This document shows, piece by piece, positions 7,668 to 9,630 of a DNA stretch of 64,000 nucleotides. Origin of the DNA: the human T2T-CHM13v2.0 reference genome, Homo sapiens. The translations under genes and the position numbers were made by a program. The stretch lies in the NCBI RefSeq assembly GCF_009914755.1, contig NC_060930.1. One strand, written 5' to 3'. Position 1 is the first letter of the stretch. Every line of letters starts with the position of its first letter. Under the pieces are notes generated by a model that saw nothing but the letters and a program-made list of their open reading frames with translations, ran no database searches and was not told where the DNA came from.

Positions 7668-7721
7668 CACGAAACAATATAAACAGCACAAGTCCTCCTT
7701 TAAGAAACTTACCATTTCATA

Positions 7722-9630
7722 CCCCATCATCTCAGCCCAAAATCTCCTTAAACTGATAAGCAACTTCAGCAAAGTCTCAGGATACAAAGTCAATGTGCAA
7801 AAATCACAAGCATTCTTATACACCAAGAACAGACAAATCATGAGTGAACTCCCATTCACAATTGCTTCAAAGAGAATAAAATACCTAAGAATCCAACTGA
7901 CAAAGGATGTGAAGGACCTCTTCAAGAACTACAAACCACTGCTCAACTAAATAAAAGAGGACACAAACAAATGGAAAAACATTCCATGCTCATGGATAGG
8001 AAGAATCAATATCGTGAAAATGGCCATACTGCCCAATGTAATTTATAGATTCAATGCCATCCCCATCAAGCTACCAATGACCTTCTTCACAGAATTGGAA
8101 GAAGCTACTTTAAAGTTCATATGGAACCAAAAAAGAGCCCGCATTGCCAGGACAATCCTAAGCCAAAAGAACAAAGCTGGAGGCATCATGCTACCTGACT
8201 TCAAACTATACTACAAGGCTGCAGTAACCAAAACAGCATGGTATTGGTACCAAAACAGAGATATAGACCAATGGAGCAGAACACAGCCCTGAGAAATAAT
8301 ACCACATATCTACAACCATCTGATCTTTGACAAATATGACAAGAACAAGCAATGGGGAAAGGATTCCCTATTTAATAAATGGTGCTGGGAAAACTGGCTA
8401 GCCATATGGAGAAAGCTGAAACTGGATCCCTTCCTTACACTTTATACAAAAATTAATTCAAGATGGATTAAAGACTTAAATGTTAGACCTAAAACCATAA
8501 AAACCCTAGAAGAAAACCTAGGCAATACCATTCAGGACATAGGCATGGGCAAGGACTTCATGTCTAAAACACCAAAGGCAATGGCAACGAAAGCCAAAAT
8601 TAACAAATGGGATCTAATTAAACTAAAGAATTTCTGCACAGCAAAAGAAACTACCATCAGAGTGAACAGGCAACCTACAGAATGGGAGAAAATTTTTGCA
8701 ATCTACTCATCTGACAAAGGGCTAATATCCAGAATCTACAAAGAACTCAAACAAATTTACAAGAAAAAAACAAACAACCCCATCAACAAGTGGGTGAAGG
8801 ATATGAACAGACACTTCTCAAAAGAAGACATTTATGCAGCCAAAAGACACATGAAAAAATGCTCATCATCACTGGCCATCAGAGAAATGCAAATCAAAAC
8901 CACAATGAGATACCATCTCACACCAGTTAGAATGGCAAACATTAAAAAGTCAGGAAACAACAGGTGCTGGAGAGGATGTGGAGAAATAGGAACACTTTTA
9001 CACTGTTGGTGGGACTGTAAACTGCTTCAACCATTGTGGAAGACAGTGTGGCGATTCCTCAAGGATCTCAAACTAGAAATACCATTTGACCCAGCCATCC
9101 CATTACTGGGTATATACCCAAAGGATTATAAATCATGCTGCTATAAAGACACATGCACACGTATGTTTATTGCAACACTATTCACAATAGCAAAGACTTG
9201 GAACCAACCCAAATGTCCAACAATGATAGACTGGATTAAGAAAATGTGGCACATATACACCATGGAATACTATGCAACCATAAAAAAAGATGAGTTCATG
9301 TCCTTTGTAGGGACATGGATGAAGCTGGAAACCATCATTCTCAGCAAACTGTCACAGGGACAAAAAACAAACACCGCATGTTCTCACTCATAGGTGGGAA
9401 CTGAGCAATGAGAACACTTGGACAGAGGAAGGGGAACATCACACACTGGGGCCTGTCGTGGGGTGGGGGTATTGGGGAGGGATAGCATTAGGAGATATAC
9501 CTAATGTAAATGACGAGTTAATGGGTGCAGCACACCAACATGGCACGTGTATACATATGTAACAAACCTGCACGTTGTGCACATGTACCCTAGAACTTAA
9601 AGTATAATAAAAAATAAATAAATAAAAATA
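7722..9630 (+). mobile_element. 5'-truncated L1PA (L1PA4/5-like), right arm of palindrome
   Basis: ORF2 C-terminal ORFs 8014-8292 and 8545-9393, 3' UTR, A-rich tail 9605-9630. Confidence 0.97.

What the first reader, a model, noticed from the sequence alone, without database searches (positions are those of the whole stretch)
7668..7766. The palindrome spacer appears flipped: the L1's TSD is in the wrong orientation (candidate invertible segment)
Seen: tctgaaatggtaaatttctt (5790-5809) abuts the left arm's poly(T). Its partner lies in the spacer as the reverse complement, aagaaacttaccatttcata (7702-7721), attached to the right arm's 5' end. Reverse-complementing only the spacer restores a textbook insertion: left L1 continuing aagttgcttatcag...gatgggg, then the direct TSD, 25 bp of flank, a 9-bp filler (tgtttcgtg) and the right arm. 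The copy at 4678-4872 shows exactly that restored order. Inference: recombination between the arms inverted the spacer, so it may be a recurrent or polymorphic micro-inversion that short reads cannot detect.
Basis: partly seen in the sequence, partly recalled or inferred. Interest (0 to 1): 0.8.

Follow-up and report, generated by a model that had tools for sequence, protein, structure and literature searches.

The report
Inverted L1 duplicate with swapped end-marks
One old L1 retrotransposon copy was later duplicated head-to-head into a 3.8-kb palindrome, and the insertion's two end-marks now sit on different arms; this is real, but a later flip of the 99-base centre is only one of several ordinary ways to get it.

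Summary
Two L1 arms (5810-7667 minus, 7767-9631 plus) differ at 2.3% of bases and enclose a 99-bp single-copy centre (7668-7766). The 20-bp target-site duplication (TSD) beside the left arm's poly(T) (5790-5809) recurs, reverse-complemented (18 of 20), at 7702-7721 against the L1 5' end of the right arm. Both arms descend from one insertion: they share 24 substitutions and a small deletion absent from 12 of 12 nearest L1 copies. The "restored-order" copy is larger than reported. It is a 310-bp insert (4678-4987) with a 10-bp direct repeat inside an older repeat. It also preserves 115 bp of native flank found nowhere else in the genome, so the palindrome event deleted that flank. The flip inference is only partly supported. 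A forward template switch, a staggered-break inversion, or asymmetric trimming of a near-perfect palindrome gives the same sequence, and one haplotype cannot separate them. My odds for a crossover flip are about 0.25, and for present-day polymorphism about 0.06. Arm divergence suggests the structure is millions of years old. It is a known kind of rearrangement in a lncRNA intron, of modest interest.

The parts
4668..4677 (+). left copy of the 10-bp direct repeat ACAATACCAA flanking the 310-bp insert
   Evidence: same 10 bases at 4988-4997; in related copies of the older repeat the alignment ends at 4677 and resumes at 4988 with a 10-base overlap
4678..4827 (-). 150-bp copy of the L1 5' end (antisense on + strand), first part of the 310-bp insert
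   Evidence: shares the small deletion and two substitutions with both arms; 8 private substitutions
4828..4847 (+). copy of the TSD, intermediate between the other two copies (19 of 20 to each)
4848..4872 (+). copy of the 25 bp of native flank next to the L1 5' TSD
4873..4987 (+). 115 bp that continue the native flank; found nowhere else in the genome
   Evidence: 1 match, itself; no other copy in the window
4988..4997 (+). right copy of the 10-bp direct repeat; the older interspersed repeat resumes here
5790..5809 (+). TSD at the poly(T) end of the left arm (native 3' junction)
5810..7667 (-). left arm: L1 3' 1.86 kb in minus orientation, poly(T) 5810-5821
7668..7676 (.). 9-bp filler CACGAAACA at the palindrome junction, no template found
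7677..7701 (-). 25 bp of native flank, inverted
7702..7721 (-). TSD partner, inverted, against the L1 5' end
   Evidence: (I9)
7722..7766 (+). the 45 L1 bases at the 5' truncation point that exist once in the palindrome
   Evidence: other L1 copies match from query 52-56 on
7767..9631 (+). right arm: same L1 stretch in plus orientation, A-rich tail 9609-9631, then unique flank

Best explanation
A single 5'-truncated L1 entered this site in minus orientation by ordinary target-primed reverse transcription. It made a 20-bp TSD at a TCTT/AA-type nick site; this step is shown. Later, a DNA-level event copied its 3' 1.86 kb in inverted orientation next to itself. The same event lost at least 115 bp of the flank that used to follow the 5' TSD and left a 9-bp filler at the junction. 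The duplication and the loss are shown; the event itself is inferred. The result is a 3.8-kb palindrome whose 99-bp single-copy centre carries the native L1 5' junction attached to the arm that lacks the native 3' junction. I think this orientation was most likely set when the centre was made or first stabilised. One possibility is a nascent strand that left the L1 at 7667 and resumed 99 nt ahead on the opposite strand, or the equivalent staggered-break inversion. The other is a near-perfect palindrome reaching through the TSD and 25-bp flank on both sides, which then lost 90 bp from the left side of its unstable centre. A later arm-to-arm crossover is possible but not required. The structure is old, about 1.1% change per arm, and probably fixed, lying neutrally in an intron of HEY2-AS1.
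For: One insertion, not two:
- The arms are 97% alike, while the 39 other listed L1 matches are all 94% (40 of 17907 candidates scored).
- Against 12 outgroup L1 copies, the arms share 24 substitutions and a deletion (33 columns). They differ privately at 22 (left), 16 (right) and 2 (both) of 1855 columns; 56 columns were ambiguous.
- The 31-mer across the deletion is exact only in the two arms genome-wide. The two other L1 copies that carry it with 1 mismatch are only 88-93% like the arm.

Native arrangement and loss of flank:
- The 310-bp insert 4678-4987 keeps the order L1 5' end, TSD, 25 bp, 115 bp.
- Those last 115 bp are unique in the genome.
- In the palindrome, the 25 bp are followed by the filler instead.

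The insert is discrete: 11 of 11 related copies of the older repeat align on both sides of it and none across it. In 5 of them the alignment stops at 4677 and restarts at 4987/4988 with a 10-11-base overlap.

Age: 42 substitutions in about 1840 aligned bases, with no clear conversion gradient once the outgroups' own rate per bin is taken into account.

Non-crossover routes have precedent. Leading-to-lagging template switches with 40-80-nt interruptions, and secondary end-joining that enlarges the spacer of unstable palindromes, are described in PMC10766186 (passages). The centre folds as a perfect hairpin, z -23.6.
Against: - Canonical fold-back and leading-to-lagging switch models leave the spacer in native orientation on the original arm (PMC3907307 and PMC10766186, passages). 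Under those models the observed state needs a second event.
- A crossover flip is a well-documented second event. Spacers of large X palindromes are inverted in about half of species comparisons (PMC8327919, passages).
- L1 pairs of median 97.2% identity flank human balanced inversions (preprint 10.1101/2021.12.20.472354, passages).
- The forward-switch route needs single-stranded template ahead of the stalled strand, which I assume rather than show.
- No microhomology can be read at the junction because of the filler.
- The right arm's outer edge falls inside the L1 A-tail. This is an unexplained coincidence for any DNA-level copy.
Confidence: 0.55

Rival explanations
1. A fold-back or similar event first made the palindrome with the centre in native order: left L1 complete, direct TSD, 25-bp flank, filler, then the inverted copy. 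Later, homologous recombination between the arms within one chromatid inverted the 99-bp centre. The inverted state became fixed, or the centre still toggles.
For: Flipping only 7668-7766 restores a textbook insertion. The insert at 4678-4987 shows that this order once existed. The TSD-mismatch criterion comes from PMC2603318. Spacer inversions are common in large palindromes (PMC8327919). The arm identity of 97.7% lies in the range of L1 pairs seen at human inversions.
Against: It needs two events where one can do. The arms are short (1.86 kb), and recurrent inversions are enriched for long flanking repeats. The longest identical run today is 255 bp. I found no row for this place in the inversion tables I could search, though a 99-bp flip inside a palindrome is below their reach. 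No second haplotype was seen.
Confidence: 0.25
2. Two independent L1 insertions 25 bp apart in opposite orientation. The second deleted its target site and left a 9-bp 5' filler. The pair was then homogenised and flipped by recombination between them (classic retrotransposon recombination-mediated inversion).
For: The right arm ends exactly in an A-rich tail next to unique DNA, as a retrotransposed copy would. Fillers at 5' junctions and target deletions are known for L1 (recalled).
Against: The arms share 24 substitutions and a deletion absent from 12 of 12 nearest relatives. No third L1 in the genome comes closer than 94%. There is no second TSD pair: the sequence left of the filler-side junction does not match the sequence after the tail.
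Confidence: 0.03
3. The right arm plus centre (7677-9631) is a retrocopy of a read-through transcript. That transcript began in the upstream flank, ran through the L1 and ended at its poly(A) signal. The retrocopy then landed inside its own parent and deleted the parent's 5' end.
For: It explains the tail boundary, the filler, the missing TSD and the present orientation in one step. HEY2-AS1 is transcribed on the L1's sense strand (annotation given with the task).
Against: A retrocopy landing within 100 bp of its source is about a one-in-a-million chance for a random insertion (my arithmetic). No nick-site or TSD evidence exists. The tail (23 nt, A-rich with interspersed T) is not longer or purer than the parent's.
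Confidence: 0.03
4. Twin priming during the original L1 insertion produced the inverted part.
For: About 85% of inversions under 2 kb in humans arise this way (preprint abstract).
Against: The two arms cover the same L1 positions rather than adjacent ones. Each has its own tail. The inverted part includes the TSD and 25 bp of flank, which exist only after integration.
Confidence: 0.01
5. Assembly artefact: the orientation of the centre is wrong in this assembly.
For: Palindromes can mislead assemblers.
Against: The whole structure is 3.8 kb with 42 arm-specific substitutions. From general knowledge of this assembly, the long reads used for it are longer than that. This was not testable here.
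Confidence: 0.02

Closest known systems
Retrotransposon recombination-mediated inversion (RRMI), Lee et al. 2008, PMC2603318 (passages read)
   Same: Inverted L1 copies flank a short inverted segment. A TSD no longer pairs with its partner on the same element; the partner is found inverted at the inner end of the other element. The reported size range starts at 166 bp.
   Different: Here the two L1 copies are duplicates of one insertion, so only one TSD pair exists. The uninverted state has not been seen in any genome, and the same sequence can arise without a crossover.
Fold-back inverted duplications with a single-copy spacer, Hermetz et al. 2014, PMC3907307 (passages read)
   Same: Inverted arms, a single-copy spacer, inserted bases at the junction (5 of 21 junctions there), and loss of DNA beyond the break.
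   Different: Those are megabase duplications with 766 bp to 70 kb spacers at chromosome ends. This one is interstitial, with 1.86-kb arms and a 99-bp spacer, and the spacer is attached the wrong way for a plain fold-back.
Leading-to-lagging template switch and secondary rearrangement of palindrome centres (ODIRA model), Brewer et al. 2024, PMC10766186 (passages read)
   Same: Short interruptions (40-80 nt there, 99 nt here) between inverted arms. Unstable palindromes are later altered at the centre by end joining, which enlarges the spacer.
   Different: ODIRA predicts inverted triplications that include a replication origin. Here there is only a duplication of 1.86 kb, and no short inverted repeat is visible at the junction.
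Large sex-chromosome palindromes with spacer inversions, Jackson et al. 2021, PMC8327919 (passages read)
   Same: Arm-to-arm recombination within one chromatid inverts the spacer, and orientation differs in about half of species comparisons.
   Different: By the abstract starts listed, such palindromes are large and keep over 99% arm identity through gene conversion. Here the arms are 1.86 kb of L1 at 97.7%, with no clear sign of conversion.
L1 twin priming (5' inversion), as described in preprint 10.1101/2021.12.20.472354 (passages read)
   Same: An L1 with an inverted part, under 2 kb.
   Different: Twin priming joins adjacent, non-overlapping L1 parts under one tail and one TSD pair. Here the parts overlap fully, there are two tails, and flank DNA is included.

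Membership tests
L1 insertion by target-primed reverse transcription | A-tail at the 3' end and 5' truncation | tested here: met
   poly(T) 5810-5821 on the left arm and tail 9609-9631 on the right arm. The L1 match of other genomic copies starts at 7719-7723.
L1 insertion by target-primed reverse transcription | 7-20-bp TSD flanking the element as a direct repeat | tested here: not met
   The two TSD copies (18 of 20) are in inverted orientation and on different arms. They are direct only in the 310-bp copy's order, or after flipping the centre.
L1 insertion by target-primed reverse transcription | T-rich/AA nick site at the target | tested here: met
   The native target, read from the 310-bp copy, is ...TTTCTT followed by AAAGG. 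The consensus is recalled from general knowledge.
Retrotransposon recombination-mediated inversion | two homologous elements in inverted orientation at both breakpoints | tested here: met
Retrotransposon recombination-mediated inversion | both elements chimeric, each with mismatched TSDs whose partners lie inverted at the other element | tested here: inconclusive
   This holds for the one TSD pair that exists. The second arm never had its own TSD, so half of the criterion cannot apply.
Retrotransposon recombination-mediated inversion | uninverted ancestral state present in an outgroup or another haplotype | not testable with these tools
   Only this one human assembly is held. No ape or second human sequence is available.
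Fold-back inverted duplication | inverted arms around a single-copy spacer | tested here: met
Fold-back inverted duplication | spacer continuous, in native orientation, with the original arm | tested here: not met
   The spacer continues the right arm, while the native outer junction (TSD plus unique flank) is on the left arm.
Fold-back inverted duplication | inverted microhomology or inserted bases at the spacer-duplication junction | tested here: met
   A 9-bp insertion with no template in the window. Microhomology cannot be read for that reason.
L1 twin priming | inverted and direct parts are adjacent L1 segments under one tail and one TSD pair | tested here: not met
   The arms cover the same 1.86 kb, each has its own tail, and flank DNA lies inside.

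The most novel reading that the evidence does not exclude
The 99-bp centre still toggles between two orientations in living humans or among great apes. That would be a recurrent micro-inversion driven by 1.86-kb L1 arms, and short reads cannot see it: every junction reads the same in both states, and the nearest arm variants (22 and 43 bp from the centre) flip with it. It would then be an example of a hidden class of small L1-palindrome switches.
Probability: 0.06. Interest if true: 0.5.

Novelty: new member of a known kind. Interest (0 to 1): 0.25.

Why it matters
The locus is a clean small example of a general point. In a palindrome, the orientation of the single-copy centre relative to insertion scars cannot by itself show that a flip took place. 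It also shows a nearby 310-bp copy acting as a fossil: that copy fixes the native order and reveals a deletion at the source. If long-read pangenomes showed both orientations, the site would give a rate estimate for recombination between short, closely spaced L1 repeats. There is no sign of a functional consequence. The site lies in an intron of a lncRNA and touches no exon or annotated element.

Tried and rejected

2. Recovering the native neighbour of the right flank. The flanks 5563-5809 and 9632-10130 and the 115-bp piece are all single-copy. No older repeat bridges the junctions, so the size of the deletion stays unknown.

3. A template for the 9-bp filler. Only chance-level 8-9-mers turned up in the window.

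4. Gene-conversion gradient along the arms. The outer 304 bases differ at 4.6% against 1.8% inside (Fisher p 0.006). The 12 outgroup copies are also about 1.6 times faster there, so I do not claim conversion.

5. Sibling L1 copies from one master. The two other L1 copies with the same small deletion are only 88-93% like the arm, so the deletion recurred.

6. Dating the 310-bp copy against the palindrome. It has 8 private changes against 2 on the right-arm lineage in 150 bases (binomial p 0.11), and no change shared by the arms that the copy lacks. That is too few sites to order the events.

7. Published inversion tables. I searched the supplements of PMC13721702, PMC12350169, PMC10150506 and PMC11794170 for positions starting 12679 (this assembly) or 12560 (my own estimate of the GRCh38 place). 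One search also tried 12680 and 12561.
   - There was no inversion row; the only hits were 6 occurrences of '12560' in one file of PMC12350169, and the two I saw lay in one linkage table row.
   - One file of PMC12350169 could not be read, and another was cut when stored.
   - Supplements of the bioRxiv preprint are closed.
   - These tables would not list a 99-bp flip inside a palindrome, so this is not evidence of absence.

8. Twin priming, an independent second insertion, and a retrocopy landing in its parent are rejected or down-weighted as given under the rivals.

Full report
WHAT IS THERE

The window is human chr6 (T2T-CHM13), inside an intron of the minus-strand lncRNA HEY2-AS1, according to the annotation given with the task.

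Reading 4500-10000 and the repeat scan show a palindrome. The left arm is an L1 3' portion in minus orientation (5810-7667, poly(T) 5810-5821). The right arm is the same L1 portion in plus orientation (7767-9631, A-rich tail 9609-9631). The arms are collinear in four blocks of 92-99% complementarity, and exactly 99 nt lie between them (pairs I1, I2, I4, I5). Folded as single-stranded DNA, the central 299 nt form a perfect 100-bp stem with the 99 nt as loop (z -23.6).

THE OBSERVATION

It holds. One search gives TCTGAAATGGTAAATTTCTT at 5790-5809, against the left poly(T). The reverse complement of 7702-7721 is TATGAAATGGTAAGTTTCTT, against the point where L1 homology begins on the right (other genomic L1 copies match the spacer only from query 52-56 on). 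That is 18 of 20 at two predetermined positions.

Reverse-complementing 7668-7766 gives, in order, 45 nt of L1 antisense that continue the left arm, the TSD in direct orientation, 25 nt of flank, and TGTTTCGTG.

The non-L1 half of the spacer exists in the genome only here and at 4783-4872 (40 of 667 candidates scored).

ONE INSERTION, LATER DUPLICATED

- The right arm finds the left arm at 97%. The 39 other listed L1 copies are all at 94% (40 of 17907 candidates scored).
- I aligned both arms with 12 of those copies (93.8-94.4% to the right arm) and asked, column by column, which state the outgroups carry.
- Of 1855 columns, 1726 are unchanged and 56 are ambiguous (fewer than 10 of 12 outgroups agree).
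- 33 columns are derived and shared by both arms (24 substitutions and 9 deletion columns). 22 are private to the left arm, 16 private to the right, and 2 differ in both.
- The 31-mer spanning the shared deletion is exact only in the two arms in the whole genome. Two other L1 copies carry it with one mismatch, but they are only 88-93% like the arm, so the deletion arose independently there.
- Two independent insertions are therefore very unlikely. The arms are DNA-level duplicates, or have been fully homogenised, which amounts to the same thing.

THE "RESTORED-ORDER" COPY IS A DISCRETE 310-BP INSERT

- Eleven related copies of an older interspersed repeat (78-81% to 4988-5208) align to the window on both sides of 4678-4987, and none aligns across it.
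- In 5 of the 11, the alignment stops at 4677 and restarts at 4987/4988 with a 10-11-base overlap in the related copy.
- The overlap is the direct repeat ACAATACCAA at 4668-4677 and 4988-4997.
- The insert contains 150 bp of the L1 5' end with the shared deletion, the TSD, the 25-bp flank, and 115 further bases (4873-4987) that occur nowhere else in the genome.
- It has no A-tail on either strand, so I cannot name its mechanism. A templated insertion at a staggered break is my guess.

Its value is as a fossil. It shows that the L1 5' end, TSD and 25-bp flank were once followed by those 115 bases. In the palindrome the 25 bp are followed by the 9-bp filler and the other arm. So the palindrome event broke exactly after the 25 bp and removed at least 115 bp of native flank. 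The TSD copy in the insert is intermediate (19 of 20 to each of the others), as expected for the ancestral state.

AGE

The arms differ by 42 substitutions and three small indels in about 1840 aligned bases, or roughly 1.1% per arm. Total derived change per arm since insertion is about 2.3-2.5% (24 shared plus 16-22 private). That is close to the 1.6-2.9% private rate of the outgroup copies.

Against primate divergences that I recall rather than computed (human-chimpanzee about 1.2%, human-orangutan about 3%), the duplication would predate the human-chimpanzee split, and the insertion would be about twice as old. This is inference.

The outer 304 bases of the arms differ more (4.6% against 1.8%, p 0.006). 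The outgroups are also faster there, so I do not claim arm-to-arm gene conversion.

The 310-bp copy has 8 private changes in its 150 L1 bases, against 2 on the right-arm lineage and 1 on the left. The excess is not significant (p 0.11). There is no change shared by the arms that the copy lacks, so the copy is at least as old as the palindrome, but the order cannot be fixed more closely.

HOW THE CENTRE CAME TO POINT THE "WRONG" WAY

The facts are these. The native 3' junction (unique flank, TSD, poly(T)) is on the left arm. The native 5' junction (L1 5' end, TSD, 25-bp flank) is on the right arm and inverted.

A standard fold-back, or a leading-to-lagging switch behind the fork, copies through the spacer first and then turns back. 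It therefore leaves both native junctions on one arm (PMC3907307 and PMC10766186, passages). That is a sound possibility:
- The same TSD logic is the published criterion for retrotransposon recombination-mediated inversion, whose reported size range starts at 166 bp (PMC2603318).
- L1 pairs at human balanced inversions have a median identity of 97.2% (preprint 10.1101/2021.12.20.472354).
- Spacers of large X palindromes are inverted in about half of species comparisons (PMC8327919).

Three other routes end in the identical sequence, because the two junctions of a palindrome centre read the same in either description.

(a) A nascent strand leaves the L1 at 7667, adds 9 bases, and resumes 99 nt ahead on the opposite strand. 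It copies back through flank, TSD and L1 to the tail, then rejoins downstream.

(b) An inversion of the L1 plus 45 bp with one staggered break duplicates the staggered stretch at both ends. I recall this model from work on Drosophila; for PMC1885836 I saw only the search listing.

(c) The first product was a near-perfect palindrome reaching through TSD and flank on both sides. Its unstable centre was then trimmed by end joining, taking 90 bp from one side. Either side is equally likely. Secondary rearrangements that enlarge spacers are described in PMC10766186.

Routes (a) and (b) need one event. Route (c) and the crossover need two.

With 1.86-kb arms, I expect fixation of a neutral flip over the structure's lifetime to be possible but not likely. 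My odds are about 0.25 for a crossover flip, 0.55 for routes (a) to (c) together, and small remainders for the other rivals. Nothing in one haplotype can decide, because a crossover leaves no mark once fixed.

AN UNEXPLAINED POINT

The right arm's outer edge falls inside the L1 tail. Homology with the left side ends within the A/T tract, and the next bases are unique. A retrotransposed origin would explain this, which is why I considered two models: a second independent L1, and a retrocopy of a read-through transcript landing in its own parent. The first fails on the shared variants. The second fails on the odds of a retrocopy landing within 100 bp of its source. An A-tract acting as a preferred switch point is my working guess, not a result.

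POLYMORPHISM

This is untested. All junctions read alike in both states, and the nearest arm-specific variants (7645/7789 and 7624/7810) would flip with the centre.

I searched the held supplements of four inversion or repeat surveys for this position and found no inversion row. One file was unreadable, one was cut when stored, and the preprint's tables are closed. Such surveys would in any case not list a 99-bp event inside a palindrome.

The longest identical run between the arms is now 255 bp, then 153 and 127, so a high present-day rate seems unlikely.

VERDICT

The structure is a further example of known kinds (L1-based inverted duplication; possible recombination-mediated inversion), is probably old and fixed, and has no visible function. 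Interest is modest unless population data show both orientations.

Noticed in passing
window 4668-4997: A 310-bp insert (L1 5' end, TSD, 140 bp of flank) sits inside an older interspersed repeat. It is bounded by a 10-bp direct repeat and has no A-tail on either strand. Its last 115 bp are the only copy in the genome of DNA that was deleted at its source, so a lost flank survives only as a displaced copy. The mechanism of the insertion is unknown.
   Followed up: partly
window 4678-4827: The L1 part of the 310-bp insert carries 8 private substitutions in 150 bases, against 2 on the right-arm lineage. Four of the 8 are C-to-T on the L1 sense strand, and none is at a CpG. Error-prone copying or chance could both account for it; the excess is not significant (p 0.11).
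   Followed up: partly
L044 (chr4) and L045 (chr9), matched: Two unrelated L1 copies (88-93% to the arm) carry the same small deletion between short direct repeats in ORF2. The deletion therefore recurs independently in L1 copies.
   Followed up: partly
window 9609-9631 versus 5810-5821: The two tails of the duplicated L1 have diverged. The left tail is a pure T run of 12. The right tail is a 23-nt A-rich tract with T at every fourth to sixth base, as if turning into an AAAT-type microsatellite.
   Followed up: no
window 3950-4677 and 4988-5210: An old interspersed repeat with thousands of relatives in the genome (2948 first-look candidates, 78-81% identity). It is not in the list of longest masked stretches given with the task, and no tool here names its family.
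   Followed up: no
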